Shown one piece after another: positions 1 to 50,172 of a DNA stretch of 64,000 nt; position 1 is the first letter of the stretch; the number at the start of each line of letters is the position of its first letter. The position numbers and the translations under genes were made by a program. Source of the DNA: Azolla caroliniana (taxonomy: Eukaryota; Plantae; Polypodiophyta); NCBI GenBank assembly GCA_043228905.1, contig JBHGNT010000018.1, forward strand, positions 6,696,001 to 6,760,000, written 5' to 3'. Under the pieces are notes generated by a model. The model saw only the letters and a program-made list of their open reading frames with translations. It had not been told where the DNA came from and did not search any database.

Positions 1-2
1 AG

Positions 3-440
3 AGCACTGAATCGGTAAAAACCGATCAACCGAGTCCGGATCGACCGAATACAAATCGGAAAGGAAGCCGAACTAAACGAAAGACGATCCGACGAGACCG
101 AATCGGAAGTAAGCTAATCCGACTAAACCGAAAATCCGAAAAGAAGTCGAGATTGATGAAGAAAAGAAAGAGGGCGAGAAAAGATACTACCGCGGATGAC
201 AAGGACCAAACGGGCCATGCAAAAAGCGAACGAAGACTATGGTGGATCGGATGTCGACAATGGTTCGGGTGGAAAGAATGGATGTGCTCCAAATGGAGAG
301 ACAAAGTCAACATAACAAGAGAAGTCGAGGGTACTACGAGCCGGCAACGAAACCAATCGGGTAGAGACCGGACGGAGGAGACTAACAAACACCAACAACT
401 TCGGCACATACCGGAGGATGTGCGGGTTTGGAGGGGGTGA
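3..440 (+). CDS. C-terminal part of the array Gag-like ORF (partial unit at window edge)
   Basis: Identical to the 3' end of the 702-aa ORFs. Confidence 0.7.
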   Translation, partial: STESVKTDQPSPDRPNTNRKGSRTKRKTIRRDRIGSKLIRLNRKSEKKSRLMKKRKRARKDTTADDKDQTGHAKSERRLWWIGCRQWFGWKEWMCSKWRDKVNITREVEGTTSRQRNQSGRDRTEETNKHQQLRHIPEDVRVWRG

Positions 441-441
441 G
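430..441 (+). promoter_or_regulatory. Polypurine tract, repeated every 2817 bp
   Basis: GGAGGGGGTGAG immediately 5' of the LTR start TGTCATAG; overlaps the ORF stop codon. Confidence 0.85.
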
Positions 442-1197
442 TGTCATAGTGTATTTTGTACACTACGTGAAAAACGTATATAGTATTAGATTCAATAAAA
501 AATGAAGAAATAGAAGAAAATAGCAAAATAAATGGAACATGCATAGGGCAAGATTCGAACCTTGCACCTCCATGTTAATAATGTAATGTCTTACCATTAC
601 ACTAGCATTTCATTAGTGTTAAAGTATAGATGTCCCACATAGAAAGGTAAATTCACGCTAGGATAAACATTAGAAAAACGCATAACAAAAGAAAAAGCTA
701 CACATACACATCTAGCGTGCATGATAAAAAACGCACAAGTTAGAAAAAAGCATGATCACTTTAGATAAAGCATATAGTCTATCTATAGGAAAAGCATGGG
801 GTCTATAGTTAGAGAAAAAGCATGGATTACTAAGACTTTCTCATCACTACATAAGGATGGGGAGCACAATGTAATAGGCGTGTGAAATATTTGGAAATTG
901 GATATATTTCCGAAAACACCAACCGATTAATATAATCGTGGGATTCACGAAAATAATATAATCTATACTTGTGGGATTCACAAGTTTCTTATATCTTTCT
1001 TTCAATCTAAATACATATTCTTATCTAAATATTGATTAATCGAATACAATACACTCGTGGGATTCACGAAATTTCTATCTCTCTTTCTAATAATCTATTC
1101 ATTACTAGCCTCATCTCATATTCTTCTTTCTCCTAGTCCAAAACCCCAGTGGTTCCCACCCGACTCACGCAACGATCCGCAGCCGAAAGGCACGACA
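442..1197 (+). repeat. LTR copy 1 (756 bp)
   Basis: TGTCATAG...CACGACA termini, preceded by PPT and followed by PBS. Confidence 0.93.
541..606 (-). promoter_or_regulatory. tRNA-like A-box/B-box module inside U3, antisense to the LTR, present in all six array LTRs
   Basis: Minus strand reads GCTAGTGTAATGGTAAG...GGAGGTGCAAGGTTCGAATCTTGCCCTATGC: A box TAGTGTAATGG, B box GGTTCGAATC in a GCAAG/CTTGC stem, tRNA-like spacing, T4 run downstream. Confidence 0.7.
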
Positions 1198-1201
1198 CAG
1201 T

Positions 1202-1219
1202 TGGTGAACCCGACGTGAA
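1202..1219 (+). promoter_or_regulatory. Primer-binding site complementary to tRNA-Trp (repeated in each unit)
   Basis: TGGTGAACCCGACGTGAA is the reverse complement of the plant tRNA-Trp(CCA) 3' end TTCACGTCGGGTTCACCA (recalled sequence); begins 4 nt after the LTR. Confidence 0.88.
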
Positions 1220-1235
1220 GGCGGGTGGCAAGGAG

Positions 1236-3257
1236 ATGGAGAATCAACAAGAGGCAATGAGTATAACGATGATGATGATGTTCGAGCGGATGCTACAAGA
1301 ACAACGAGTGATGTCGGAGATCACGGCGGTAGTAAAGCGGCTCGTACAACGAAACGGACAATTCAACGGAAACGATCTGTCACGCTATCTACATGACTAC
1401 AAGGCAGAGATGATACGATGTGGGATACCGGAAGGATTGCAAGTGACATCCTTCAATCGGGTGGCCACGGATGAGCTACAAGAGAGAATCCACAAGATAC
1501 GGCAACAAAACTCGACATGGGGATCATTCGAAGAAGCTTTACGAGAGGCATATGATTACAAGAGATCGAAGGGAAAAGATCGGCGAGAATTCGACGAATG
1601 GGTGGCATCGGAGAAGACCCACCGAAGTGCAACACAAGCATTCCTAGAGTTCGAGCATCGTTTTGCTCGACTCTCGGAGCGGGAACGAAGATTGGTGGGA
1701 GAAGATAAAGTCTTAATGTTCGTAAGATCGATCGATCGGAAAGAAAGGATGGACATTGGGATCGAACTCGAAGATGATGACGGTGCGAACGGCCTTACCG
1801 AAGATTGGGCCGAAGTCCAAAGGGTATGCCGGAGACATGATAAGAGGAAGATGAGAATCTTGTCAACAACATGGCCGATGAAGGATGGTCGATTGAAGAC
1901 AAACGATGGAGCCGATATGAAGGCCGAAATACAACATGATGGTGCGACGGAAGAGGGTGTAAAACAAGCTACCCTCTTGTCTTGTGAAAGAACGATGGCG
2001 AAGGATAAGGCCGATAATTCAAGTGTAGAAGGAAATTTCGGGATACAAGTGCCCGAGACATCGGGTCAAAAAGGGGTAAGCATAATAGATGTTTGCATAA
2101 TTGATGCAGATAAAGAGTGTGAAGCGGATGTGATTAAGGAGGTAGCCACAAAAGACGAAATCGAATCGGAGGTGGCTATGGACGAATCAATGGCGGATTG
2201 CCATATCGAGACTTCCCCAGCACTGATTCCAGAGACTCCGGCGGTTGCGATCGAAAGGCAACGTGAGACCGAAGAGACGGAAGGTGGTGGAGAGAAAACG
2301 AATGTCGAAGCCGACGAATACGATGAAGAGATAGCCGAGAAGAATGCTAAGGGTGAAACTACGAAAGAAGGTAAAACCGAGGATTCATGCCAACAATATC
2401 TAGAGACTTCGGCGGTTGTGTCCGAGAACCAACGTGAGACCGGAGAGACGGGAGATGGCGGCGAGGAAGGTAAAGTCGGAAGTCGGTTCGGATGGAAAAT
2501 GATCCATCCGAAATTCCAATCTAAAAGAAAGTGTGACAATGCGGAGGTCGGGTCTACGACGGGAGAAGCGCGTAATACAGAGCACGCTCTACGGCGAATA
2601 AAGAAACGCGTGTTATGGCGAATAAAGAAGCACGCGCTACGGCGAGAAAAGAAGCATGCATTACAACCACACGAGGACCGAACAACGAGCACATATCGGA
2701 GGACCTACGTAGCGAACAACGGAAAGAAGTGCCGAAAGTCGAACCGGACAAGGCAGGTGAAAACGAAGAAAAGAAAGCAAATCCGGACGAAAAGAAAAGA
2801 AAAGAAACCGACCCGAAAGAGCACTGAATCGGTAAAAACCGATCAACCGAGTCCGGATCGACCGAATACAAATCGGAAAGGAAGCCGAACTAAACGAAAG
2901 ACGATCCGACGAGACCGAATCGGAAGTAAGCTAATCCGACTAAACCGAAAATCCGAAAAGAAGTCGAGATTGATGAAGAAAAGAAAGAGGGCGAGAAAAG
3001 ATACTACCGCGGATGACAAGGACCAAACGGGCCATGCAAAAAGCGAACGAAGACTATGGTGGATCGGATGTCGACAATGGTTCGGGTGGAAAGAATGGAT
3101 GTGCTCCAAATGGAGAGACAAAGTCAACATAACAAGAGAAGTCGAGGGTACTACGAGCCGGCAACGAAACCAATCGGGTAGAGACCGGACGGAGGAGACT
3201 AACAAACACCAACAACTTCGGCACATACCGGAGGATGTGCGGGTTTGGAGGGGGTGA
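1236..3257 (+). CDS. gag: Gag-like protein (~673 aa from the first ATG after the PBS): capsid-like N-terminus, then acidic and K/R-rich tails; no PR/RT/RH/IN
   Basis: FNGNDLSRYL...WGSFEEALREAY...FEHRF pattern typical of Ty3/Gypsy capsid. Homologous fragment at 51966-52445. The GTG start at 1149 lies in the LTR, so the ATG at 1236 is preferred. Confidence 0.75.
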   Translation: MENQQEAMSITMMMMFERMLQEQRVMSEITAVVKRLVQRNGQFNGNDLSRYLHDYKAEMIRCGIPEGLQVTSFNRVATDELQERIHKIRQQNSTWGSFEEALREAYDYKRSKGKDRREFDEWVASEKTHRSATQAFLEFEHRFARLSERERRLVGEDKVLMFVRSIDRKERMDIGIELEDDDGANGLTEDWAEVQRVCRRHDKRKMRILSTTWPMKDGRLKTNDGADMKAEIQHDGATEEGVKQATLLSCERTMAKDKADNSSVEGNFGIQVPETSGQKGVSIIDVCIIDADKECEADVIKEVATKDEIESEVAMDESMADCHIETSPALIPETPAVAIERQRETEETEGGGEKTNVEADEYDEEIAEKNAKGETTKEGKTEDSCQQYLETSAVVSENQRETGETGDGGEEGKVGSRFGWKMIHPKFQSKRKCDNAEVGSTTGEARNTEHALRRIKKRVLWRIKKHALRREKKHALQPHEDRTTSTYRRTYVANNGKKCRKSNRTRQVKTKKRKQIRTKRKEKKPTRKSTESVKTDQPSPDRPNTNRKGSRTKRKTIRRDRIGSKLIRLNRKSEKKSRLMKKRKRARKDTTADDKDQTGHAKSERRLWWIGCRQWFGWKEWMCSKWRDKVNITREVEGTTSRQRNQSGRDRTEETNKHQQLRHIPEDVRVWRG

Positions 3258-3258
3258 G

Positions 3259-4014
3259 TGTCATAGTGTATTTTGTACACTACGTGAAAAACGTATATAG
3301 TATTAGATTCAATAAAAAATGAAGAAATAGAAGAAAATAGCAAAATAAATGGAACATGCATAGGGCAAGATTCGAACCTTGCACCTCCATGTTAATAATG
3401 TAATGTCTTACCATTACACTAGCATTTCATTAGTGTTAAAGTATAGATGTCCCACATAGAAAGGTAAATTCACGCTAGGATAAACATTAGAAAAACGCAT
3501 AACAAAAGAAAAAGCTACACATACACATCTAGCGTGCATGATAAAAAACGCACAAGTTAGAAAAAAGCATGATCACTTTAGATAAAGCATATAGTCTATC
3601 TATAGGAAAAGCATGGGGTCTATAGTTAGAGAAAAAGCATGGATTACTAAGACTTTCTCATCACTACATAAGGATGGGGAGCACAATGTAATAGGCGTGT
3701 GAAATATTTGGAAATTGGATATATTTCCGAAAACACCAACCGATTAATATAATCGTGGGATTCACGAAAATAATATAATCTATACTTGTGGGATTCACAA
3801 GTTTCTTATATCTTTCTTTCAATCTAAATACATATTCTTATCTAAATATTGATTAATCGAATACAATACACTCGTGGGATTCACGAAATTTCTATCTCTC
3901 TTTCTAATAATCTATTCATTACTAGCCTCATCTCATATTCTTCTTTCTCCTAGTCCAAAACCCCAGTGGTTCCCACCCGACTCACGCAACGATCCGCAGC
4001 CGAAAGGCACGACA
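3259..4014 (+). repeat. LTR copy 2
   Basis: Same sequence as 442-1197. Confidence 0.93.
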
Positions 4015-4052
4015 CAGTTGGTGAACCCGACGTGAAGGCGGGTGGCAAGGAG

Positions 4053-6074
4053 ATGGAGAATCAACAAGAGGCAATGAGTATAACGATGATGATGATGTTC
4101 GAGCGGATGCTACAAGAACAACGAGTGATGTCGGAGATCACGGCGGTAGTAAAGCGGCTCGTACAACGAAACGGACAATTCAACGGAAACGATCTGTCAC
4201 GCTATCTACATGACTACAAGGCAGAGATGATACGATGTGGGATACCGGAAGGATTGCAAGTGACATCCTTCAATCGGGTGGCCACGGATGAGCTACAAGA
4301 GAGAATCCACAAGATACGGCAACAAAACTCGACATGGGGATCATTCGAAGAAGCTTTACGAGAGGCATATGATTACAAGAGATCGAAGGGAAAAGATCGG
4401 CGAGAATTCGACGAATGGGTGGCATCGGAGAAGACCCACCGAAGTGCAACACAAGCATTCCTAGAGTTCGAGCATCGTTTTGCTCGACTCTCGGAGCGGG
4501 AACGAAGATTGGTGGGAGAAGATAAAGTCTTAATGTTCGTAAGATCGATCGATCGGAAAGAAAGGATGGACATTGGGATCGAACTCGAAGATGATGACGG
4601 TGCGAACGGCCTTACCGAAGATTGGGCCGAAGTCCAAAGGGTATGCCGGAGACATGATAAGAGGAAGATGAGAATCTTGTCAACAACATGGCCGATGAAG
4701 GATGGTCGATTGAAGACAAACGATGGAGCCGATATGAAGGCCGAAATACAACATGATGGTGCGACGGAAGAGGGTGTAAAACAAGCTACCCTCTTGTCTT
4801 GTGAAAGAACGATGGCGAAGGATAAGGCCGATAATTCAAGTGTAGAAGGAAATTTCGGGATACAAGTGCCCGAGACATCGGGTCAAAAAGGGGTAAGCAT
4901 AATAGATGTTTGCATAATTGATGCAGATAAAGAGTGTGAAGCGGATGTGATTAAGGAGGTAGCCACAAAAGACGAAATCGAATCGGAGGTGGCTATGGAC
5001 GAATCAATGGCGGATTGCCATATCGAGACTTCCCCAGCACTGATTCCAGAGACTCCGGCGGTTGCGATCGAAAGGCAACGTGAGACCGAAGAGACGGAAG
5101 GTGGTGGAGAGAAAACGAATGTCGAAGCCGACGAATACGATGAAGAGATAGCCGAGAAGAATGCTAAGGGTGAAACTACGAAAGAAGGTAAAACCGAGGA
5201 TTCATGCCAACAATATCTAGAGACTTCGGCGGTTGTGTCCGAGAACCAACGTGAGACCGGAGAGACGGGAGATGGCGGCGAGGAAGGTAAAGTCGGAAGT
5301 CGGTTCGGATGGAAAATGATCCATCCGAAATTCCAATCTAAAAGAAAGTGTGACAATGCGGAGGTCGGGTCTACGACGGGAGAAGCGCGTAATACAGAGC
5401 ACGCTCTACGGCGAATAAAGAAACGCGTGTTATGGCGAATAAAGAAGCACGCGCTACGGCGAGAAAAGAAGCATGCATTACAACCACACGAGGACCGAAC
5501 AACGAGCACATATCGGAGGACCTACGTAGCGAACAACGGAAAGAAGTGCCGAAAGTCGAACCGGACAAGGCAGGTGAAAACGAAGAAAAGAAAGCAAATC
5601 CGGACGAAAAGAAAAGAAAAGAAACCGACCCGAAAGAGCACTGAATCGGTAAAAACCGATCAACCGAGTCCGGATCGACCGAATACAAATCGGAAAGGAA
5701 GCCGAACTAAACGAAAGACGATCCGACGAGACCGAATCGGAAGTAAGCTAATCCGACTAAACCGAAAATCCGAAAAGAAGTCGAGATTGATGAAGAAAAG
5801 AAAGAGGGCGAGAAAAGATACTACCGCGGATGACAAGGACCAAACGGGCCATGCAAAAAGCGAACGAAGACTATGGTGGATCGGATGTCGACAATGGTTC
5901 GGGTGGAAAGAATGGATGTGCTCCAAATGGAGAGACAAAGTCAACATAACAAGAGAAGTCGAGGGTACTACGAGCCGGCAACGAAACCAATCGGGTAGAG
6001 ACCGGACGGAGGAGACTAACAAACACCAACAACTTCGGCACATACCGGAGGATGTGCGGGTTTGGAGGGGGTGA
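4053..6074 (+). CDS. gag: Gag-like protein, copy 2
   Basis: Identical translation. Confidence 0.75.
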   Translation: MENQQEAMSITMMMMFERMLQEQRVMSEITAVVKRLVQRNGQFNGNDLSRYLHDYKAEMIRCGIPEGLQVTSFNRVATDELQERIHKIRQQNSTWGSFEEALREAYDYKRSKGKDRREFDEWVASEKTHRSATQAFLEFEHRFARLSERERRLVGEDKVLMFVRSIDRKERMDIGIELEDDDGANGLTEDWAEVQRVCRRHDKRKMRILSTTWPMKDGRLKTNDGADMKAEIQHDGATEEGVKQATLLSCERTMAKDKADNSSVEGNFGIQVPETSGQKGVSIIDVCIIDADKECEADVIKEVATKDEIESEVAMDESMADCHIETSPALIPETPAVAIERQRETEETEGGGEKTNVEADEYDEEIAEKNAKGETTKEGKTEDSCQQYLETSAVVSENQRETGETGDGGEEGKVGSRFGWKMIHPKFQSKRKCDNAEVGSTTGEARNTEHALRRIKKRVLWRIKKHALRREKKHALQPHEDRTTSTYRRTYVANNGKKCRKSNRTRQVKTKKRKQIRTKRKEKKPTRKSTESVKTDQPSPDRPNTNRKGSRTKRKTIRRDRIGSKLIRLNRKSEKKSRLMKKRKRARKDTTADDKDQTGHAKSERRLWWIGCRQWFGWKEWMCSKWRDKVNITREVEGTTSRQRNQSGRDRTEETNKHQQLRHIPEDVRVWRG

Positions 6075-6075
6075 G

Positions 6076-6831
6076 TGTCATAGTGTATTTTGTACACTAC
6101 GTGAAAAACGTATATAGTATTAGATTCAATAAAAAATGAAGAAATAGAAGAAAATAGCAAAATAAATGGAACATGCATAGGGCAAGATTCGAACCTTGCA
6201 CCTCCATGTTAATAATGTAATGTCTTACCATTACACTAGCATTTCATTAGTGTTAAAGTATAGATGTCCCACATAGAAAGGTAAATTCACGCTAGGATAA
6301 ACATTAGAAAAACGCATAACAAAAGAAAAAGCTACACATACACATCTAGCGTGCATGATAAAAAACGCACAAGTTAGAAAAAAGCATGATCACTTTAGAT
6401 AAAGCATATAGTCTATCTATAGGAAAAGCATGGGGTCTATAGTTAGAGAAAAAGCATGGATTACTAAGACTTTCTCATCACTACATAAGGATGGGGAGCA
6501 CAATGTAATAGGCGTGTGAAATATTTGGAAATTGGATATATTTCCGAAAACACCAACCGATTAATATAATCGTGGGATTCACGAAAATAATATAATCTAT
6601 ACTTGTGGGATTCACAAGTTTCTTATATCTTTCTTTCAATCTAAATACATATTCTTATCTAAATATTGATTAATCGAATACAATACACTCGTGGGATTCA
6701 CGAAATTTCTATCTCTCTTTCTAATAATCTATTCATTACTAGCCTCATCTCATATTCTTCTTTCTCCTAGTCCAAAACCCCAGTGGTTCCCACCCGACTC
6801 ACGCAACGATCCGCAGCCGAAAGGCACGACA
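6076..6831 (+). repeat. LTR copy 3
   Basis: Same sequence as 442-1197. Confidence 0.93.
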
Positions 6832-6869
6832 CAGTTGGTGAACCCGACGTGAAGGCGGGTGGCAAGGAG

Positions 6870-8891
6870 ATGGAGAATCAACAAGAGGCAATGAGTATAA
6901 CGATGATGATGATGTTCGAGCGGATGCTACAAGAACAACGAGTGATGTCGGAGATCACGGCGGTAGTAAAGCGGCTCGTACAACGAAACGGACAATTCAA
7001 CGGAAACGATCTGTCACGCTATCTACATGACTACAAGGCAGAGATGATACGATGTGGGATACCGGAAGGATTGCAAGTGACATCCTTCAATCGGGTGGCC
7101 ACGGATGAGCTACAAGAGAGAATCCACAAGATACGGCAACAAAACTCGACATGGGGATCATTCGAAGAAGCTTTACGAGAGGCATATGATTACAAGAGAT
7201 CGAAGGGAAAAGATCGGCGAGAATTCGACGAATGGGTGGCATCGGAGAAGACCCACCGAAGTGCAACACAAGCATTCCTAGAGTTCGAGCATCGTTTTGC
7301 TCGACTCTCGGAGCGGGAACGAAGATTGGTGGGAGAAGATAAAGTCTTAATGTTCGTAAGATCGATCGATCGGAAAGAAAGGATGGACATTGGGATCGAA
7401 CTCGAAGATGATGACGGTGCGAACGGCCTTACCGAAGATTGGGCCGAAGTCCAAAGGGTATGCCGGAGACATGATAAGAGGAAGATGAGAATCTTGTCAA
7501 CAACATGGCCGATGAAGGATGGTCGATTGAAGACAAACGATGGAGCCGATATGAAGGCCGAAATACAACATGATGGTGCGACGGAAGAGGGTGTAAAACA
7601 AGCTACCCTCTTGTCTTGTGAAAGAACGATGGCGAAGGATAAGGCCGATAATTCAAGTGTAGAAGGAAATTTCGGGATACAAGTGCCCGAGACATCGGGT
7701 CAAAAAGGGGTAAGCATAATAGATGTTTGCATAATTGATGCAGATAAAGAGTGTGAAGCGGATGTGATTAAGGAGGTAGCCACAAAAGACGAAATCGAAT
7801 CGGAGGTGGCTATGGACGAATCAATGGCGGATTGCCATATCGAGACTTCCCCAGCACTGATTCCAGAGACTCCGGCGGTTGCGATCGAAAGGCAACGTGA
7901 GACCGAAGAGACGGAAGGTGGTGGAGAGAAAACGAATGTCGAAGCCGACGAATACGATGAAGAGATAGCCGAGAAGAATGCTAAGGGTGAAACTACGAAA
8001 GAAGGTAAAACCGAGGATTCATGCCAACAATATCTAGAGACTTCGGCGGTTGTGTCCGAGAACCAACGTGAGACCGGAGAGACGGGAGATGGCGGCGAGG
8101 AAGGTAAAGTCGGAAGTCGGTTCGGATGGAAAATGATCCATCCGAAATTCCAATCTAAAAGAAAGTGTGACAATGCGGAGGTCGGGTCTACGACGGGAGA
8201 AGCGCGTAATACAGAGCACGCTCTACGGCGAATAAAGAAACGCGTGTTATGGCGAATAAAGAAGCACGCGCTACGGCGAGAAAAGAAGCATGCATTACAA
8301 CCACACGAGGACCGAACAACGAGCACATATCGGAGGACCTACGTAGCGAACAACGGAAAGAAGTGCCGAAAGTCGAACCGGACAAGGCAGGTGAAAACGA
8401 AGAAAAGAAAGCAAATCCGGACGAAAAGAAAAGAAAAGAAACCGACCCGAAAGAGCACTGAATCGGTAAAAACCGATCAACCGAGTCCGGATCGACCGAA
8501 TACAAATCGGAAAGGAAGCCGAACTAAACGAAAGACGATCCGACGAGACCGAATCGGAAGTAAGCTAATCCGACTAAACCGAAAATCCGAAAAGAAGTCG
8601 AGATTGATGAAGAAAAGAAAGAGGGCGAGAAAAGATACTACCGCGGATGACAAGGACCAAACGGGCCATGCAAAAAGCGAACGAAGACTATGGTGGATCG
8701 GATGTCGACAATGGTTCGGGTGGAAAGAATGGATGTGCTCCAAATGGAGAGACAAAGTCAACATAACAAGAGAAGTCGAGGGTACTACGAGCCGGCAACG
8801 AAACCAATCGGGTAGAGACCGGACGGAGGAGACTAACAAACACCAACAACTTCGGCACATACCGGAGGATGTGCGGGTTTGGAGGGGGTGA
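6870..8891 (+). CDS. gag: Gag-like protein, copy 3
   Basis: Identical translation. Confidence 0.75.
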   Translation: MENQQEAMSITMMMMFERMLQEQRVMSEITAVVKRLVQRNGQFNGNDLSRYLHDYKAEMIRCGIPEGLQVTSFNRVATDELQERIHKIRQQNSTWGSFEEALREAYDYKRSKGKDRREFDEWVASEKTHRSATQAFLEFEHRFARLSERERRLVGEDKVLMFVRSIDRKERMDIGIELEDDDGANGLTEDWAEVQRVCRRHDKRKMRILSTTWPMKDGRLKTNDGADMKAEIQHDGATEEGVKQATLLSCERTMAKDKADNSSVEGNFGIQVPETSGQKGVSIIDVCIIDADKECEADVIKEVATKDEIESEVAMDESMADCHIETSPALIPETPAVAIERQRETEETEGGGEKTNVEADEYDEEIAEKNAKGETTKEGKTEDSCQQYLETSAVVSENQRETGETGDGGEEGKVGSRFGWKMIHPKFQSKRKCDNAEVGSTTGEARNTEHALRRIKKRVLWRIKKHALRREKKHALQPHEDRTTSTYRRTYVANNGKKCRKSNRTRQVKTKKRKQIRTKRKEKKPTRKSTESVKTDQPSPDRPNTNRKGSRTKRKTIRRDRIGSKLIRLNRKSEKKSRLMKKRKRARKDTTADDKDQTGHAKSERRLWWIGCRQWFGWKEWMCSKWRDKVNITREVEGTTSRQRNQSGRDRTEETNKHQQLRHIPEDVRVWRG

Positions 8892-8892
8892 G

Positions 8893-9648
8893 TGTCATAG
8901 TGTATTTTGTACACTACGTGAAAAACGTATATAGTATTAGATTCAATAAAAAATGAAGAAATAGAAGAAAATAGCAAAATAAATGGAACATGCATAGGGC
9001 AAGATTCGAACCTTGCACCTCCATGTTAATAATGTAATGTCTTACCATTACACTAGCATTTCATTAGTGTTAAAGTATAGATGTCCCACATAGAAAGGTA
9101 AATTCACGCTAGGATAAACATTAGAAAAACGCATAACAAAAGAAAAAGCTACACATACACATCTAGCGTGCATGATAAAAAACGCACAAGTTAGAAAAAA
9201 GCATGATCACTTTAGATAAAGCATATAGTCTATCTATAGGAAAAGCATGGGGTCTATAGTTAGAGAAAAAGCATGGATTACTAAGACTTTCTCATCACTA
9301 CATAAGGATGGGGAGCACAATGTAATAGGCGTGTGAAATATTTGGAAATTGGATATATTTCCGAAAACACCAACCGATTAATATAATCGTGGGATTCACG
9401 AAAATAATATAATCTATACTTGTGGGATTCACAAGTTTCTTATATCTTTCTTTCAATCTAAATACATATTCTTATCTAAATATTGATTAATCGAATACAA
9501 TACACTCGTGGGATTCACGAAATTTCTATCTCTCTTTCTAATAATCTATTCATTACTAGCCTCATCTCATATTCTTCTTTCTCCTAGACCAAAACCCCAG
9601 TGGTTCCCACCCGACTCACGCAACGATCCGCAGCCGAAAGGCACGACA
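8893..9648 (+). repeat. LTR copy 4 (T>A variant at 9588)
   Basis: CCTAGACCAAAA here versus CCTAGTCCAAAA in the other copies. Confidence 0.93.
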
Positions 9649-9686
9649 CAGTTGGTGAACCCGACGTGAAGGCGGGTGGCAAGGAG

Positions 9687-11708
9687 ATGGAGAATCAACA
9701 AGAGGCAATGAGTATAACGATGATGATGATGTTCGAGCGGATGCTACAAGAACAACGAGTGATGTCGGAGATCACGGCGGTAGTAAAGCGGCTCGTACAA
9801 CGAAACGGACAATTCAACGGAAACGATCTGTCACGCTATCTACATGACTACAAGGCAGAGATGATACGATGTGGGATACCGGAAGGATTGCAAGTGACAT
9901 CCTTCAATCGGGTGGCCACGGATGAGCTACAAGAGAGAATCCACAAGATACGGCAACAAAACTCGACATGGGGATCATTCGAAGAAGCTTTACGAGAGGC
10001 ATATGATTACAAGAGATCGAAGGGAAAAGATCGGCGAGAATTCGACGAATGGGTGGCATCGGAGAAGACCCACCGAAGTGCAACACAAGCATTCCTAGAG
10101 TTCGAGCATCGTTTTGCTCGACTCTCGGAGCGGGAACGAAGATTGGTGGGAGAAGATAAAGTCTTAATGTTCGTAAGATCGATCGATCGGAAAGAAAGGA
10201 TGGACATTGGGATCGAACTCGAAGATGATGACGGTGCGAACGGCCTTACCGAAGATTGGGCCGAAGTCCAAAGGGTATGCCGGAGACATGATAAGAGGAA
10301 GATGAGAATCTTGTCAACAACATGGCCGATGAAGGATGGTCGATTGAAGACAAACGATGGAGCCGATATGAAGGCCGAAATACAACATGATGGTGCGACG
10401 GAAGAGGGTGTAAAACAAGCTACCCTCTTGTCTTGTGAAAGAACGATGGCGAAGGATAAGGCCGATAATTCAAGTGTAGAAGGAAATTTCGGGATACAAG
10501 TGCCCGAGACATCGGGTCAAAAAGGGGTAAGCATAATAGATGTTTGCATAATTGATGCAGATAAAGAGTGTGAAGCGGATGTGATTAAGGAGGTAGCCAC
10601 AAAAGACGAAATCGAATCGGAGGTGGCTATGGACGAATCAATGGCGGATTGCCATATCGAGACTTCCCCAGCACTGATTCCAGAGACTCCGGCGGTTGCG
10701 ATCGAAAGGCAACGTGAGACCGAAGAGACGGAAGGTGGTGGAGAGAAAACGAATGTCGAAGCCGACGAATACGATGAAGAGATAGCCGAGAAGAATGCTA
10801 AGGGTGAAACTACGAAAGAAGGTAAAACCGAGGATTCATGCCAACAATATCTAGAGACTTCGGCGGTTGTGTCCGAGAACCAACGTGAGACCGGAGAGAC
10901 GGGAGATGGCGGCGAGGAAGGTAAAGTCGGAAGTCGGTTCGGATGGAAAATGATCCATCCGAAATTCCAATCTAAAAGAAAGTGTGACAATGCGGAGGTC
11001 GGGTCTACGACGGGAGAAGCGCGTAATACAGAGCACGCTCTACGGCGAATAAAGAAACGCGTGTTATGGCGAATAAAGAAGCACGCGCTACGGCGAGAAA
11101 AGAAGCATGCATTACAACCACACGAGGACCGAACAACGAGCACATATCGGAGGACCTACGTAGCGAACAACGGAAAGAAGTGCCGAAAGTCGAACCGGAC
11201 AAGGCAGGTGAAAACGAAGAAAAGAAAGCAAATCCGGACGAAAAGAAAAGAAAAGAAACCGACCCGAAAGAGCACTGAATCGGTAAAAACCGATCAACCG
11301 AGTCCGGATCGACCGAATACAAATCGGAAAGGAAGCCGAACTAAACGAAAGACGATCCGACGAGACCGAATCGGAAGTAAGCTAATCCGACTAAACCGAA
11401 AATCCGAAAAGAAGTCGAGATTGATGAAGAAAAGAAAGAGGGCGAGAAAAGATACTACCGCGGATGACAAGGACCAAACGGGCCATGCAAAAAGCGAACG
11501 AAGACTATGGTGGATCGGATGTCGACAATGGTTCGGGTGGAAAGAATGGATGTGCTCCAAATGGAGAGACAAAGTCAACATAACAAGAGAAGTCGAGGGT
11601 ACTACGAGCCGGCAACGAAACCAATCGGGTAGAGACCGGACGGAGGAGACTAACAAACACCAACAACTTCGGCACATACCGGAGGATGTGCGGGTTTGGA
11701 GGGGGTGA
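9687..11708 (+). CDS. gag: Gag-like protein, copy 4
   Basis: Identical translation. Confidence 0.75.
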   Translation: MENQQEAMSITMMMMFERMLQEQRVMSEITAVVKRLVQRNGQFNGNDLSRYLHDYKAEMIRCGIPEGLQVTSFNRVATDELQERIHKIRQQNSTWGSFEEALREAYDYKRSKGKDRREFDEWVASEKTHRSATQAFLEFEHRFARLSERERRLVGEDKVLMFVRSIDRKERMDIGIELEDDDGANGLTEDWAEVQRVCRRHDKRKMRILSTTWPMKDGRLKTNDGADMKAEIQHDGATEEGVKQATLLSCERTMAKDKADNSSVEGNFGIQVPETSGQKGVSIIDVCIIDADKECEADVIKEVATKDEIESEVAMDESMADCHIETSPALIPETPAVAIERQRETEETEGGGEKTNVEADEYDEEIAEKNAKGETTKEGKTEDSCQQYLETSAVVSENQRETGETGDGGEEGKVGSRFGWKMIHPKFQSKRKCDNAEVGSTTGEARNTEHALRRIKKRVLWRIKKHALRREKKHALQPHEDRTTSTYRRTYVANNGKKCRKSNRTRQVKTKKRKQIRTKRKEKKPTRKSTESVKTDQPSPDRPNTNRKGSRTKRKTIRRDRIGSKLIRLNRKSEKKSRLMKKRKRARKDTTADDKDQTGHAKSERRLWWIGCRQWFGWKEWMCSKWRDKVNITREVEGTTSRQRNQSGRDRTEETNKHQQLRHIPEDVRVWRG

Positions 11709-11709
11709 G

Positions 11710-12465
11710 TGTCATAGTGTATTTTGTACACTACGTGAAAAACGTATATAGTATTAGATTCAATAAAAAATGAAGAAATAGAAGAAAATAGCAAAATAAA
11801 TGGAACATGCATAGGGCAAGATTCGAACCTTGCACCTCCATGTTAATAATGTAATGTCTTACCATTACACTAGCATTTCATTAGTGTTAAAGTATAGATG
11901 TCCCACATAGAAAGGTAAATTCACGCTAGGATAAACATTAGAAAAACGCATAACAAAAGAAAAAGCTACACATACACATCTAGCGTGCATGATAAAAAAC
12001 GCACAAGTTAGAAAAAAGCATGATCACTTTAGATAAAGCATATAGTCTATCTATAGGAAAAGCATGGGGTCTATAGTTAGAGAAAAAGCATGGATTACTA
12101 AGACTTTCTCATCACTACATAAGGATGGGGAGCACAATGTAATAGGCGTGTGAAATATTTGGAAATTGGATATATTTCCGAAAACACCAACCGATTAATA
12201 TAATCGTGGGATTCACGAAAATAATATAATCTATACTTGTGGGATTCACAAGTTTCTTATATCTTTCTTTCAATCTAAATACATATTCTTATCTAAATAT
12301 TGATTAATCGAATACAATACACTCGTGGGATTCACGAAATTTCTATCTCTCTTTCTAATAATCTATTCATTACTAGCCTCATCTCATATTCTTCTTTCTC
12401 CTAGTCCAAAACCCCAGTGGTTCCCACCCGACTCACGCAACGATCCGCAGCCGAAAGGCACGACA
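11710..12465 (+). repeat. LTR copy 5
   Basis: Same sequence as 442-1197. Confidence 0.93.
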
Positions 12466-12503
12466 CAGTTGGTGAACCCGACGTGAAGGCGGGTGGCAAG
12501 GAG

Positions 12504-14525
12504 ATGGAGAATCAACAAGAGGCAATGAGTATAACGATGATGATGATGTTCGAGCGGATGCTACAAGAACAACGAGTGATGTCGGAGATCACGGCGGTAG
12601 TAAAGCGGCTCGTACAACGAAACGGACAATTCAACGGAAACGATCTGTCACGCTATCTACATGACTACAAGGCAGAGATGATACGATGTGGGATACCGGA
12701 AGGATTGCAAGTGACATCCTTCAATCGGGTGGCCACGGATGAGCTACAAGAGAGAATCCACAAGATACGGCAACAAAACTCGACATGGGGATCATTCGAA
12801 GAAGCTTTACGAGAGGCATATGATTACAAGAGATCGAAGGGAAAAGATCGGCGAGAATTCGACGAATGGGTGGCATCGGAGAAGACCCACCGAAGTGCAA
12901 CACAAGCATTCCTAGAGTTCGAGCATCGTTTTGCTCGACTCTCGGAGCGGGAACGAAGATTGGTGGGAGAAGATAAAGTCTTAATGTTCGTAAGATCGAT
13001 CGATCGGAAAGAAAGGATGGACATTGGGATCGAACTCGAAGATGATGACGGTGCGAACGGCCTTACCGAAGATTGGGCCGAAGTCCAAAGGGTATGCCGG
13101 AGACATGATAAGAGGAAGATGAGAATCTTGTCAACAACATGGCCGATGAAGGATGGTCGATTGAAGACAAACGATGGAGCCGATATGAAGGCCGAAATAC
13201 AACATGATGGTGCGACGGAAGAGGGTGTAAAACAAGCTACCCTCTTGTCTTGTGAAAGAACGATGGCGAAGGATAAGGCCGATAATTCAAGTGTAGAAGG
13301 AAATTTCGGGATACAAGTGCCCGAGACATCGGGTCAAAAAGGGGTAAGCATAATAGATGTTTGCATAATTGATGCAGATAAAGAGTGTGAAGCGGATGTG
13401 ATTAAGGAGGTAGCCACAAAAGACGAAATCGAATCGGAGGTGGCTATGGACGAATCAATGGCGGATTGCCATATCGAGACTTCCCCAGCACTGATTCCAG
13501 AGACTCCGGCGGTTGCGATCGAAAGGCAACGTGAGACCGAAGAGACGGAAGGTGGTGGAGAGAAAACGAATGTCGAAGCCGACGAATACGATGAAGAGAT
13601 AGCCGAGAAGAATGCTAAGGGTGAAACTACGAAAGAAGGTAAAACCGAGGATTCATGCCAACAATATCTAGAGACTTCGGCGGTTGTGTCCGAGAACCAA
13701 CGTGAGACCGGAGAGACGGGAGATGGCGGCGAGGAAGGTAAAGTCGGAAGTCGGTTCGGATGGAAAATGATCCATCCGAAATTCCAATCTAAAAGAAAGT
13801 GTGACAATGCGGAGGTCGGGTCTACGACGGGAGAAGCGCGTAATACAGAGCACGCTCTACGGCGAATAAAGAAACGCGTGTTATGGCGAATAAAGAAGCA
13901 CGCGCTACGGCGAGAAAAGAAGCATGCATTACAACCACACGAGGACCGAACAACGAGCACATATCGGAGGACCTACGTAGCGAACAACGGAAAGAAGTGC
14001 CGAAAGTCGAACCGGACAAGGCAGGTGAAAACGAAGAAAAGAAAGCAAATCCGGACGAAAAGAAAAGAAAAGAAACCGACCCGAAAGAGCACTGAATCGG
14101 TAAAAACCGATCAACCGAGTCCGGATCGACCGAATACAAATCGGAAAGGAAGCCGAACTAAACGAAAGACGATCCGACGAGACCGAATCGGAAGTAAGCT
14201 AATCCGACTAAACCGAAAATCCGAAAAGAAGTCGAGATTGATGAAGAAAAGAAAGAGGGCGAGAAAAGATACTACCGCGGATGACAAGGACCAAACGGGC
14301 CATGCAAAAAGCGAACGAAGACTATGGTGGATCGGATGTCGACAATGGTTCGGGTGGAAAGAATGGATGTGCTCCAAATGGAGAGACAAAGTCAACATAA
14401 CAAGAGAAGTCGAGGGTACTACGAGCCGGCAACGAAACCAATCGGGTAGAGACCGGACGGAGGAGACTAACAAACACCAACAACTTCGGCACATACCGGA
14501 GGATGTGCGGGTTTGGAGGGGGTGA
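12504..14525 (+). CDS. gag: Gag-like protein, copy 5
   Basis: Identical translation. Confidence 0.75.
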   Translation: MENQQEAMSITMMMMFERMLQEQRVMSEITAVVKRLVQRNGQFNGNDLSRYLHDYKAEMIRCGIPEGLQVTSFNRVATDELQERIHKIRQQNSTWGSFEEALREAYDYKRSKGKDRREFDEWVASEKTHRSATQAFLEFEHRFARLSERERRLVGEDKVLMFVRSIDRKERMDIGIELEDDDGANGLTEDWAEVQRVCRRHDKRKMRILSTTWPMKDGRLKTNDGADMKAEIQHDGATEEGVKQATLLSCERTMAKDKADNSSVEGNFGIQVPETSGQKGVSIIDVCIIDADKECEADVIKEVATKDEIESEVAMDESMADCHIETSPALIPETPAVAIERQRETEETEGGGEKTNVEADEYDEEIAEKNAKGETTKEGKTEDSCQQYLETSAVVSENQRETGETGDGGEEGKVGSRFGWKMIHPKFQSKRKCDNAEVGSTTGEARNTEHALRRIKKRVLWRIKKHALRREKKHALQPHEDRTTSTYRRTYVANNGKKCRKSNRTRQVKTKKRKQIRTKRKEKKPTRKSTESVKTDQPSPDRPNTNRKGSRTKRKTIRRDRIGSKLIRLNRKSEKKSRLMKKRKRARKDTTADDKDQTGHAKSERRLWWIGCRQWFGWKEWMCSKWRDKVNITREVEGTTSRQRNQSGRDRTEETNKHQQLRHIPEDVRVWRG

Positions 14526-14526
14526 G

Positions 14527-15282
14527 TGTCATAGTGTATTTTGTACACTACGTGAAAAACGTATATAGTATTAGATTCAATAAAAAATGAAGAAATAGAA
14601 GAAAATAGCAAAATAAATGGAACATGCATAGGGCAAGATTCGAACCTTGCACCTCCATGTTAATAATGTAATGTCTTACCATTACACTAGCATTTCATTA
14701 GTGTTAAAGTATAGATGTCCCACATAGAAAGGTAAATTCACGCTAGGATAAACATTAGAAAAACGCATAACAAAAGAAAAAGCTACACATACACATCTAG
14801 CGTGCATGATAAAAAACGCACAAGTTAGAAAAAAGCATGATCACTTTAGATAAAGCATATAGTCTATCTATAGGAAAAGCATGGGGTCTATAGTTAGAGA
14901 AAAAGCATGGATTACTAAGACTTTCTCATCACTACATAAGGATGGGGAGCACAATGTAATAGGCGTGTGAAATATTTGGAAATTGGATATATTTCCGAAA
15001 ACACCAACCGATTAATATAATCGTGGGATTCACGAAAATAATATAATCTATACTTGTGGGATTCACAAGTTTCTTATATCTTTCTTTCAATCTAAATACA
15101 TATTCTTATCTAAATATTGATTAATCGAATACAATACACTCGTGGGATTCACGAAATTTCTATCTCTCTTTCTAATAATCTATTCATTACTAGCCTCATC
15201 TCATATTCTTCTTTCTCCTAGTCCAAAACCCCAGTGGTTCCCACCCGACTCACGCAACGATCCGCAGCCGAAAGGCACGACA
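14527..15282 (+). repeat. Terminal (3') LTR of the array
   Basis: Ends in CACGACA followed by ACGT and host sequence, not by a PBS. Confidence 0.93.
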
Positions 15283-17198: not shown

Positions 17199-17921
17199 TG
17201 TCGTGCCTTTCGGCTCCGGATCGTTTGCGTGAGTCGGGTGGGAACCACCGGGGTTTTGGACTAGGAGAAAAGAAAAATACAAATAAGGCTAGTAAAGAAT
17301 AGGTATAAAGAGTTATAAGATAAAAATCTCGTGAATCCCACGAGTTTAGTATATTTAGTCAATATTTAGGTAGTAAGAGAGAATTATTTTAGCAAATTCG
17401 TGAATCCCACGAATATTTTAGATTGATTGATCATTATAGAAAAATAATCAACAAAAACTACAATGTGCTCCCCATCCTTATATAGTGATGGGAGAGACTA
17501 AGCATAACTACATGCTTTTTCTAATATGTTCATGCACACTAAATGTGCATGTGATGTTTTTCTAATCCTTGCTTTTATTTGCTAAATATAGTGCTCATGC
17601 ACGCTAGATGTGCATGAGTCACTTTTTAGTTGCTTGCGTTTTTCTATAAAATATTCACGCACTCTAAAAATGCATGATTTACCTTTTTAATAAAGGTAGG
17701 CGCAAATAAAGCACTTATAGTTATTAAATCTATTTATAGAACACTAAAGATAAGGTAGCATAATGGTAAAGTTGAGGTTTGGCTACGTGAAGGTACAAGG
17801 TTTGAATCTTGCCCTATGCACGTGATAAATATCTTGATATATTATTTTATTTATTTATATGTAATTAAATCGGTTATATTATTTTTACTTTTTCACGTAG
17901 TGTACGAAATACACTACGACA
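17199..17921 (-). mobile_element. Solo LTR of a diverged subtype of the array family, 4-bp TSD CCGT
   Basis: Both ends are reverse complements of the array LTR ends; CCGT at 17195-17198 and 17922-17925. Confidence 0.92.
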
Positions 17922-48500: not shown

Positions 48501-50172
48501 TGACTCGGGGATAATCGTGTGCATGGTGTGATGACAAGAAGGGGAGAAGATAAGATAGATACGACGTTGTCACATCAATAATTTTATTTGTAAAATATCA
48601 CTTACAATATTTGTTTGCCAAAAGTTACTCGAAATATCACTTACTTGAAATTAGCTCCTCTCTTGGAAATAAGGTTTATCAAATATACCACTTCAACTCT
48701 TTTCTTTCTTTATTGATTAAATTTTCTTTTCTTTATATTTAATATTTACAAAACATGTTTCCCAAAATAAGTTGTTTTGGTAGGATTCAAACTTACAACC
48801 TTTATTATGGAAGAGGCATTTGAGATAAAGCACTTCACTAATTTCCTTCTTTTCATTAATGTTTATTGGATTAAAGCCCAACCACCCTCCTTGAGAACCA
48901 CCTCATGCATGGGCGGTTGTTATATTTATTATTATTATTATTATTTATTTAGAAATTATAAAATCACCCGCATTTAATTTCGAACTTTGAGTAATCTTGA
49001 AGGTAAAATTGATCCTCCTAGAGGCCGTATCTTAGGCTTCTGAACTCCGATTCACAAACTAAAAATTCCTACATGCTCTTCGTCGCAAGCTCCAGATGGA
49101 AAATGTGCTTCTAAAGATTTTTAACATTGTTTCGATATTGTGAAGTCTCAACTTCACGACACCCATCGCCTCTGAAATTGGACACTTGTGGGCGAGTTCA
49201 CACCACTTCATTTTGATCCTCTTCAAAACATTCTTCATCCTCATGTTCTATGAAATTCAGTTCAGTGTCTTATTCCTTTTCCCGGAATCAGTGTTTGTAT
49301 CTCAGTCCCATCCAACTCGTTCCAGTAATAGGTAGCCTTATCAGTCACCTTGCATACTTTGTAAGGCCCAAACCACAGTTTTACAAACTTCCTCATTGTA
49401 CTATATTGGTTCTCAAGGCTACTATCTAGTACAAACACCTAGTATCCTTGTTGAATATTTCGTGGTCGTAGTTTGTTTACTTTGTCAAATCTTGCTTTGT
49501 TCTTTATCCAAGCTTCCTTCAACTTCTCAGGAGCCTTTCTACATCTTCTGCTTGACGTTGTAGTTGTCGGATACCAACAACTAGCAAGTCTTCTCTACTC
49601 ATCTCCGACTCCCATGGCAAGACAACCCATGTAGCAATCTTCTCTTCAATCTGCATGACCGACCTTTGTCCTGTCATGAGCTCTATCGGCATATATCCTA
49701 TCACTGAACTGTGTGTAGTCCTATCCGCCCATAATGCATATAGCAAGACCTTCGGCCAATTACCTACTCTACCTTTGCACGCCTTTGCAAGTGCTTTAAC
49801 TATCGGGCTATGACCTCTTTCTATCTTTCCATTTGCCTCTAGATTATATGTTGTTATCAATGATGGACAAATTCCAATTCTATCAAAGAACTCCCTTTGC
49901 CTCTTCATCGGAATTGAACTCACCTCTGTCAACCACTATCTTTGCTACACACCCATATCTACATACTATATCCTCTCATATGAATTGGCATACTACCGAC
50001 GTGGTCTTCGATATTAATGCCCTTCCTTCTACTGGATTTGTAAGGTTGTCTCTAGCAAGTACCAAGAATTTCTTCTAAGCAGCCCCCATCAACATTGCCA
50101 CTATATTTACCATCCATTTGTAGTGTACACCCGGCGAGTAGGTCGAGTGCGACTCATCTCTATGCTTAACGT

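What the first reader, a model, noticed from the sequence alone, without database searches (positions are those of the whole stretch)
541..606. tRNA-derived Pol III promoter-like module inside the LTRs of a tandem-forming retrotransposon family (a possible tRNA analogue of Cassandra)
Seen: the array LTR minus strand has A box TAGTGTAATGG and B box GGTTCGAATC in a 5-bp stem, at tRNA spacing (~45 nt), with a downstream T4 run. The same geometry recurs in diverged family LTRs whose spacers differ: 17756-17820 (TAGCATAATGG / GGTTTGAATC), 30674-30732 (TAGTTTAATGG / GGTTCGAGTC), 50795-50854 (TGGCTTAGTGG / GGTTCAAATCC) and 58190-58252 (TGGTTTAGTGG / GGTTCAAGCC). These are antisense to their LTRs; weaker sense-oriented copies lie at 30414-30467 and ~48780-48840. 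Known: Cassandra TRIMs carry 5S Pol III boxes in their LTRs and form shared-LTR tandem arrays, and TFIIIC-bound boxes can act as chromatin barriers. Inference: boxes kept while spacers drift suggests selection for Pol III/TFIIIC recruitment, for example a short antisense RNA, an anti-silencing insulator or integration tethering.
Basis: partly seen in the sequence, partly recalled or inferred. Interest (0 to 1): 0.85.

Follow-up and report, generated by a model that had tools for sequence, protein, structure and literature searches.

The report
Backward tRNA promoter in retrotransposon LTRs
Some plant jumping genes carry in their end-repeats a conserved, backward-facing remnant of a tRNA-gene promoter that points away from the element's own gene and likely recruits the host's tRNA-gene machinery to help keep the neighbouring promoter open, a variant of the tRNA-bearing end-repeats already described for Helenus elements.

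Summary
The boxes are real. A tRNA-type A box (604-594) and B box (561-552), 32 nt apart, lie antisense in U3 of each 756-bp LTR of a 2817-bp shared-LTR array. The element encodes only a Gag-like protein and has Phygy Ty3/gypsy marks (tRNA-Trp primer site, NCGN target). One homologous cassette recurs at 17756, 50854, 58252 and in 5 of 29 related LTRs from other samples (3 intact, 2 decayed). Across unalignable LTR families the B half keeps 81-83% identity, the A box 60%, the anticodon region 45%, flanks 28-38%. It is not a tRNA, has no conserved terminator, is scattered over the Gag tree and is absent from the closest Gag relative. The 'tRNA analogue of Cassandra' is already published (Helenus), and this is not one: too long, coding, and backward, so Pol III cannot make the element's RNA. 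Best reading: an optional captured TFIIIC/Pol III cassette upstream of the Pol II promoter, likely a boundary or chromatin opener; binding and transcription are untested. An RNA-hairpin role is the main rival. The scan noted LTR-borne tRNA-like promoters in other genomes, not this family.

The parts
1..15282 (+). Shared-LTR tandem array, period 2817 bp, five whole units plus a part cut by the window start; last LTR followed by ACGT (NCGN target)
   Evidence: units differ at 1 site in 5; first and last LTR identical
424..441 (+). Polypurine tract
   Evidence: sequence
442..1197 (+). LTR, 756 bp, TGTCA...CGACA (copies 3259-4014, 6076-6831, 8893-9648, 11710-12465, 14527-15282)
594..604 (-). A box (D-loop-like), followed by a conserved TAAG at 593-590
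573..589 (-). Anticodon-arm position, the drifting part of the spacer
   Evidence: 4 of 17 identical to the solo LTR; 45% across families
562..572 (-). Variable-loop/T-stem position, 5' arm of a hairpin around the B box
   Evidence: 83% across families; pair counts
552..561 (-). B box (T-loop-like), CpG intact in the array
537..552 (-). 3' arm of the B-box hairpin
   Evidence: 14 of 15 identical to the solo LTR
525..528 (-). First T4 after the B box; not conserved in the other families
847..854 (+). TATA-like box (CTACATAA here, CTATATAA in the solo LTR and L018); promoter role inferred from motif only
1202..1219 (+). Primer-binding site, tRNA-Trp type
   Evidence: 13 of 14 bases match the 3' end of the eukaryote-type tRNA-Trp(CCA) gene in L130
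1236..3257 (+). 673-aa ORF: Gag-like N-terminal 210 aa, then acidic and basic low-complexity tail; no protease, RT or integrase
   Evidence: no Pfam hit itself; 54% to P0003, which carries DUF4100 and a weak protease match
17199..17921 (-). Solo LTR of the array family with 4-bp TSD CCGT
17756..17808 (+). Homologous cassette, antisense to the solo LTR; B box with C-to-T change
50173..51351 (+). LTR of a second family (ACGT before it, Trp primer site at 51360)
50806..50854 (-). Homologous cassette with a 4-nt deletion in the spacer
57515..58328 (+). 3'-truncated LTR of the second family
58200..58252 (-). Homologous cassette
30313..31436 (+). Third Phygy-type LTR (family PPT before it, family U5 end), otherwise unalignable; may be composite
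30679..30732 (-). Non-homologous antisense tRNA-like cassette, closest to the tRNA-Arg(CCG) of L063 among eight tRNA-like sequences: likely a separate capture
   Evidence: E 3.8; z 8.0
30414..30467 (+). Weak sense A/B-like pair, one B mismatch, not hit by the profile
48785..48837 (-). Weak sense A/B-like pair in the 3' half of a fourth LTR family (start 49161, minus strand, integrase-like DNA upstream); L062 has two such pairs

Best explanation
A tRNA-type A-box/B-box cassette sits backwards in the U3 region of some Phygy-like Ty3/gypsy LTRs, 160-270 bp upstream of a TATA-like box, and likely binds the host factor TFIIIC (with Pol III), which would hold open or wall off the chromatin next to the element's Pol II promoter. 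Shown: position, orientation, fixed spacing, conservation above flanks, patchy spread over the Gag tree, a hairpin around the B box. Inferred: capture of a tRNA gene or SINE head into one LTR; copying to both LTRs by reverse transcription; spread between families by U3 recombination; a second, separate capture at 30732. Untested: TFIIIC binding, any outward Pol III RNA, any effect on LTR activity. Because the cassette faces the LTR 5' end it cannot make the element's genomic RNA, so it is an optional accessory, not a Cassandra-type promoter.
For: Pattern excess 6 vs 0.29. Array vs solo LTR: 3' arm, B box and variable part 32 of 36, A region 12 of 15, anticodon part 4 of 17, flanking U3 40 of 65 and 40 of 96. 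Eleven cross-family pairs of six intact copies: A box 0.60, next 4 nt 0.91, anticodon part 0.45, variable part 0.83, B box 0.81, flanks 0.28 and 0.38; alignment z 4.7-10.9 for the cassette, -0.5 to 2.5 for 60-nt flanks. In runs labelled as other organisms (D, E) the contigs that lie on the LTR pile up on the LTR ends and the cassette; seven listed X21 joints link the LTR start to the cassette across unlike DNA; the X21 loose end behind 14662 (18 records) has the A-box complement at the same spacing, 12 of 13 letters, after a spacer with 2 of 14 alike; these records were laid by their B half, so their A box was not selected for (compared by eye). All 9 distinct profile hits to the cassette are antisense inside Trp-primer-type LTRs; none free-standing in 324 kb. 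That TFIIIC-bound tRNA genes act as chromatin boundaries is recalled, not from a call.
Against: No binding or RNA data; no RNA run shown to hold it. Six of the seven intact copies were first found by a box pattern, which inflates box conservation; the two copies found by homology alone (L083, L018) have decayed boxes, and with L083 included the values fall to A 0.53, B 0.69. 24 of 29 Trp-primer LTRs lack it (many are near-copies of each other), including L009, the closest Gag relative at 89%. In the second family, whose LTRs align throughout, other U3 parts are as conserved as the boxes (96 of 100 at 50931-51030 vs L059). The 11 nt before the B box, which TFIIIC is not known to read (recalled), are conserved as well as the B box, which points to a structure. 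Second-family LTRs also have TATA-like motifs on the other side of the cassette. Run depth is not a copy number (tool warning).
Confidence: 0.45

Rival explanations
1. The constraint acts on a hairpin in RNA (the 3' U3 of the element's genomic RNA, or a short tRNA-like Pol III RNA), used for packaging, strand transfer or stability; the boxes are kept as part of that fold.
For: The two arms around the B box give 7-11 Watson-Crick pairs of 11 in six of eight copies; L008 has A-T where others have G-C, and the solo LTR has a paired change against the array in the outer stem (by eye). Fold z-scores of -3.2 to -4.2 on at least one strand for the array, L046 and L059.
Against: No consensus fold on the automatic alignment (energy about 0); w58 and L083 give only 4 pairs in the fixed register; z near 0 for L008 and w58. 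The A box is kept at a fixed distance although it lies outside this hairpin. G-T and A-C counts do not tell the strand.
Confidence: 0.2
2. A neutral relic of an old tRNA or SINE insertion that hitchhikes in successful LTR lineages and is reshuffled by U3 recombination.
For: Absent from most related LTRs; decayed in 2 of 5 outside copies; B-box C-to-T changes in 2 of 7 'intact' ones; simple-repeat tail after the cassette in the second family; 5 changes on the Gag tree, equal to shuffled labels. Kojima reports that 'not a few LTRs' in Repbase hold part of a tRNA.
Against: Uneven divergence inside one 53-nt piece (0.45 beside 0.83) and the same spacing in runs of other organisms are hard to get without constraint; a second, unrelated antisense cassette sits in similar geometry at 30732.
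Confidence: 0.18
3. The bound cassette acts on DNA traffic: a landing pad for Pol III-targeting retroelements, or a polar replication-fork pause that promotes the recombination behind shared-LTR arrays.
For: Ty3 inserts at TFIIIB/TFIIIC targets and Tf1/2 LTRs carry a polar barrier (PMC5371812 passages); tRNA genes pause head-on forks in a TFIIIC-dependent way (PMC5368702 passages). The freshly amplified array has an intact B box.
Against: No insertion just upstream of the A box in the array LTR, solo LTR, 50854, L046 or L059 (alignments); the junction 76 bp upstream of 58252 joins to integrase coding DNA, not to an LTR end. Phygy targets NCGN. Tandems arise without such boxes.
Confidence: 0.08
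4. The backward boxes are the 3' half of a bipartite primer-binding site: on the element RNA they would pair with the D and T arms of primer tRNA-Trp, as in Ty3.
For: Explains the antisense orientation and the U3 position; Ty3 does this (PMC5371799 passages). L046 pairs best with the Trp proxy (-45.0 vs -43.2 for the next).
Against: For the other six homologous copies tRNA-Trp of L130 is neither the best aligned nor the best pairing partner among eight tRNA-like sequences (array z 1.2 vs 3.0-3.3). The 5' primer site is already a full 18 nt and implies a T stem unlike the cassette's. The proxy is not the host's own tRNA-Trp.
Confidence: 0.07
5. A Helenus/Cassandra-type element whose genomic RNA is made by Pol III from the LTR boxes.
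For: tRNA-like boxes in the LTR; tandem array; the array's TATA-like box is a variant.
Against: Wrong orientation; 3573 bp LTR to LTR with a 673-aa ORF, against 311-1263 bp and no coding for Helenus.
Confidence: 0.02

Closest known systems
Helenus (tRNA-type TRIMp3; Kojima 2024, PMC10886601; parts 1-4 of 6 of the text, passages and supplement search hits read)
   Same: tRNA-like sequence with conserved A and B boxes inside LTRs; not a working tRNA; PBS, PPT, 4-5-bp TSD; tandem arrays seen for one family; origin proposed by SINE insertion. By eye the box regions of L046 resemble those of Helenus-1_SMo.
   Different: Helenus is 311-1263 bp and non-coding; the three Helenus LTRs I saw in the supplement have the boxes in sense orientation; the only plant family is in Selaginella (120-bp LTR, 5-bp TSD). 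Here: antisense, 720-1180-bp LTRs with TATA-like boxes, Gag-coding, Trp primer, 4-bp NCGN TSD, optional.
Cassandra TRIM (as summarised in PMC10886601)
   Same: Pol III-type promoter boxes in LTRs; shared-LTR tandems.
   Different: 5S-derived, sense, shown to drive the element's RNA. No 5S match here.
Phygy clade of non-chromovirus Ty3/gypsy (Neumann et al. 2019, PMC6317226; passages and one supplement row read)
   Same: tRNA-Trp primer (81% of Phygy) and 4-bp NCGN TSD (100%).
   Different: Reference Phygy are 7.7-10 kb with pol; the array unit has Gag only. No LTR cassette is mentioned in the passages read.
TR-GAG-type non-autonomous elements (definition recalled; term seen in 10.64898/2026.03.01.708851 passages)
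   Same: LTRs, PBS, PPT and a single gag-like ORF.
   Different: A tRNA-like LTR cassette is not part of the definition as I recall it.
Ty3 bipartite primer-binding site (PMC5371799, passages)
   Same: tRNA-complementary sequence in U3 of a Ty3/gypsy RNA.
   Different: No preference for the primer tRNA here; tRNA-gene spacing is kept.

Membership tests
Helenus (TRIMp3) | tRNA-like sequence with A and B boxes in the LTR | tested here: met
Helenus (TRIMp3) | Short TRIM (screen limit 1000 bp, longest 1263 bp), no protein | tested here: not met
   3573 bp with a 673-aa ORF
Helenus (TRIMp3) | Boxes placed to transcribe the element (sense in the examples seen) | tested here: not met
   antisense in 9 of 9 homologous copies; sense in the three supplement LTRs seen
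Helenus (TRIMp3) | PBS, PPT and 4-5-bp TSD | tested here: met
Helenus (TRIMp3) | Pol III transcription | not testable with these tools
   needs RNA ends or ChIP
Cassandra | 5S rRNA-derived LTR segment | tested here: not met
   no 5S match at E 10 in 12000-64000
Cassandra | Shared-LTR tandem arrays | tested here: met
   not diagnostic
Phygy (Ty3/gypsy) | tRNA-Trp primer-binding site | tested here: met
   13 of 14 bases to the tRNA-Trp of L130; 81% in Phygy
Phygy (Ty3/gypsy) | 4-bp NCGN target duplication | tested here: met
   CCGT on both sides of the solo LTR; ACGT after the array and before 50173 and 57515
Phygy (Ty3/gypsy) | Placement by RT/RH/INT phylogeny | not tested
   the array unit has no pol; no reference Phygy proteins were at hand
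Functional tRNA gene | Cloverleaf with acceptor stem; covariance-model match | tested here: not met
   ARAGORN 0; Rfam none; bases 1-7 do not pair with the 3' strand
tRNA-derived SINE (SINE2) | Free-standing copies with own TSD and tail | tested here: inconclusive
   none in 324 kb, but that DNA was chosen by the primer site; simple-repeat tail only in the second family; no SINE library at hand
Ty3-type bipartite PBS | U3 segment complementary to the primer tRNA in particular | tested here: not met
   with a proxy tRNA-Trp; L046 is the one exception

The most novel reading that the evidence does not exclude
Phygy-like retrotransposons of seed-free plants have captured tRNA-gene promoters more than once and trade them between LTR families as portable, outward-facing TFIIIC devices that shield the Pol II promoter from silencing, so that a selfish element carries its own tRNA-type insulator; the freshly amplified array with an intact B box would be a product of it.
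Probability: 0.25. Interest if true: 0.75.

Novelty: new variant of a known kind. Interest (0 to 1): 0.45.

Why it matters
Known Pol III boxes in LTRs (Cassandra, Helenus, Ajax) are read as promoters for the element itself. A backward cassette in long, coding LTRs cannot be that, so its conservation across LTR families and host labels asks for another use of TFIIIC or of a tRNA-like fold by a retroelement. It comes with natural plus and minus versions (array vs L009, intact vs decayed copies), which would make TFIIIC boundary function in plants directly testable. If it proves neutral it is an ordinary captured tRNA remnant.

Tried and rejected
No whole genome is held, so no genome-wide alignment of copies, no search for free SINE copies and no insertion-site test. 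No RNA holder listed; RNA-guess runs X23 (3 contigs laid) and X19 (20 contigs) say nothing on expression. ARAGORN and Rfam found no tRNA in the cassette. A generic A+B weight matrix over 45 primer-site loci gave no family-wide excess (score 18 or more: 3 antisense, 1 sense, 1.3 expected). Consensus folding gave nothing. The donor tRNA is not identified: the anticodon-loop position reads like CTT in L046/L059 and CCT in L008/58252, while best overall likeness among eight sequences was to the iMet-like pseudogenes of L041. Four scans of viral contigs gave no plant LTR; one genome scan was empty. The ungapped figures had L008 out of register and were redone; only the alignment z-scores and TATA distances are used. 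Literature searches that found no description of an antisense tRNA cassette in Phygy, moss or fern LTRs; subscription journals, Repbase entries and bioRxiv supplements were not visible and may hold one. No structure or complex prediction was run.

Full report
Setting. The window is repeat-dense plant DNA with copia and gypsy coding pieces. Run labels are coded (organism A and B, leaf and plant metagenomes); the Phygy marks below point to a seed-free plant, moss or fern, which is an inference. Bases 1-15282 are a head-to-tail array of period 2817 whose five whole units differ at one site. Each unit is a 756-bp LTR (442-1197), a primer site at 1202, a 673-aa ORF and a polypurine tract. The first 210 residues are 51-54% identical to proteins of which P0003 and P0004 carry DUF4100 and a weak aspartyl-protease match; the ORF itself has no Pfam hit and no pol. 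The primer site matches a eukaryote-type tRNA-Trp at 13 of 14 bases (L130). A solo LTR at 17199-17921 has the 4-bp duplication CCGT, and ACGT flanks three other LTR ends. Neumann et al. give tRNA-Trp (81%) and 4-bp NCGN (100%) for Phygy (passages and one supplement row). So this is a Gag-only, Phygy-like element; phylogenetic membership was not tested.

Observation. A strict consensus finds 6 pairs in 12466-64000 against 0.29 in shuffles (0 of 100 as high); allowing one A-box mismatch removes the excess (6 vs 3.98, 23 of 100), allowing one B-box mismatch keeps it (11 vs 3.99). One strict hit (27187) is in copia coding DNA. No tRNA is called by ARAGORN or Rfam.

One cassette, several hosts. A profile of seven copies, run over 324 kb (window plus 126 loci), hits the array LTRs, 17756, 50854, 58252, L046, L059, L008 (training set), and two further copies, L083 (E 4e-6) and L018 (E 0.01), both with decayed boxes; a tRNA-iMet-like pseudogene in L041 also scores E 0.007. 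All nine distinct cassette copies are antisense inside Trp-primer-type LTRs. Of 29 loci in which the LTR could be judged (24 with a visible start after dropping L041 and L052, four, and L046), 5 carry it; many of the 24 without are near-copies, so this is not a rate. On a tree of 36 Gag pieces the label needs 5 changes for 5 carriers against 18 non-carriers, the same as shuffled (10 rows under half filled; the link of the 51963 Gag to the 50173 LTR is uncertain). L009, 89% identical in Gag, has a different U3 without it, while L059, 33% identical and with a full zinc-knuckle Gag, has it. The cassette therefore likely moves with U3 exchange and is optional.

Constraint. Array vs solo LTR: 3' arm, B box and variable part 32 of 36; A region 12 of 15; anticodon part 4 of 17; flanks 40 of 65 and 40 of 96. 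Across three LTR families (11 pairs of six copies; 50854 left out for its deletion): A box 0.60, following 4 nt 0.91, anticodon part 0.45, variable part 0.83, B box 0.81, flanks 0.28 and 0.38; with decayed L083 added, 0.53, 0.70, 0.40, 0.65, 0.69. Six of seven intact copies were first picked by a box pattern, so these figures lean high. Within the second family other U3 stretches are as well kept as the boxes. A less biased view comes from laying public contigs on 14400-15400. In runs of organisms A and B the summed depth rises over the cassette, the LTR ends and the TATA region. In runs labelled D (X20, X22) and E (X21) cover is nearly confined to such parts: X21 gives 2691 and 5140 in the two cassette bins against 14, 31 and 0.6 beside them. 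The tool warns that depth is no copy number and cannot rank parts, so I rely on what contigs bridge: seven listed X21 joints run from the LTR start to the cassette over unlike DNA (15 joints not shown), and the loose end behind 14662 carries the A-box complement at the same distance (12 of 13 letters, spacer 2 of 14); X22 behind 14657 gives 8 of 11 after 7 of 19 (by eye).

What it is not. It is not a tRNA (no acceptor stem). It has no conserved terminator: first T4 at 14, 23, 36, 36, 118, 211 nt or none in 400, with 52% of positions in the array LTR having a T4 within 40 nt. It is not matched to the primer tRNA: against eight tRNA-like sequences fetched here, tRNA-Trp is best for pairing only with L046. 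It is not Helenus or Cassandra. Kojima 2024 already named the tRNA counterpart of Cassandra: short, non-coding TRIMs, with one plant family, in Selaginella. Those boxes are read as the element's promoter; here they face the LTR 5' end. Tandems are general in non-autonomous elements.

Second signal. The 11 nt before the B box pair with the DNA after it: 7-11 Watson-Crick pairs of 11 in six of eight copies, 4 in the other two, with one or two paired changes by eye, but no consensus fold. This keeps an RNA-structure role alive. The 30732 pair is of other origin (profile E 3.8; closest to tRNA-Arg, z 8.0) yet is also antisense, 114 bp upstream of a TATA-like box, in an LTR with the family PPT and U5 end: likely a second capture.

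Mechanism. In six LTRs the A box lies about 160-270 bp upstream of a TATA-like motif, so TFIIIB would be placed between cassette and Pol II promoter and any Pol III RNA would run outward. I commit, at 0.45, to an optional TFIIIC/Pol III-recruiting accessory that keeps the LTR promoter open or bounded (boundary role of TFIIIC recalled; fork pausing and Ty3 targeting from PMC5368702 and PMC5371812 passages). Rivals: RNA hairpin 0.20, neutral relic 0.18, landing pad or fork barrier 0.08, bipartite primer site 0.07 (PMC5371799 passages), self-promoter 0.02. Nothing here shows binding or transcription.

Novelty. Nine searches (listings and abstract starts only, apart from the papers named) found no account of an antisense tRNA cassette in Phygy-type LTRs, but Kojima notes that many Repbase LTRs hold tRNA-like parts and followed only the short ones. 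Earlier notes of this scan describe LTR-borne tRNA-like promoters in other genomes and none like this LTR by sequence. Verdict: new variant of a known kind; interest 0.45.

Noticed in passing
window 1-15282; runs X1, X9; protein P0002: Contigs matching the array LTR with 0-1 differences have depth about 18,000 (X1) and 9,000 (X9) against 10-70 for diverged ones, and a same-length 673-aa relative sits on a 2819-bp contig, about one unit: this subfamily may form large, recent arrays. Depth is not a copy number.
   Followed up: partly
window 847-854: The array's TATA-like box reads CTACATAA where the solo LTR and L018 have CTATATAA; the T variant is common in the runs (place 14935), while the array's B box is intact.
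   Followed up: no
window 579-604: In the array the A box pairs with the spacer in a 10-bp hairpin not shared with the solo LTR; template switching could explain the unusually low spacer identity.
   Followed up: no
window 62071-62020, minus strand: A weak A/B-like pair in sense orientation in the long 5' leader of the gypsy element whose gag-pol starts near 61581; not hit by the profile.
   Followed up: partly
window 48464-49161 (minus); L062, L049: A further LTR family with integrase-like DNA upstream has one or two sense A/B-like pairs in its 3' half, with a weak A box.
   Followed up: partly
window 28961-31436: Two unlike LTRs around a 215-bp interior (Trp primer site, PPT), flanked by ACAT and ATGT, which could be opposite-strand decays of one ACGT target: a chimeric mini-element.
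   Followed up: partly
L063 1150-1224; L041 2244-2685: A tRNA-Arg(CCG) gene about 210-280 bp outside one Trp-primer LTR and a tandem of tRNA-iMet-like pseudogenes upstream of another: 2 of 56 loci scanned have tRNA genes close by.
   Followed up: no
window 16309-17014: 41-bp tandem repeats beside transposase-like reading frames (15204-16238), probably a DNA transposon end into which the array and the solo LTR inserted.
   Followed up: no
L128 98-173; L130 150-223: Eukaryote-type tRNA genes on short contigs of bacterial assemblies; L128 has a Trp-like body with a CCG anticodon.
   Followed up: no
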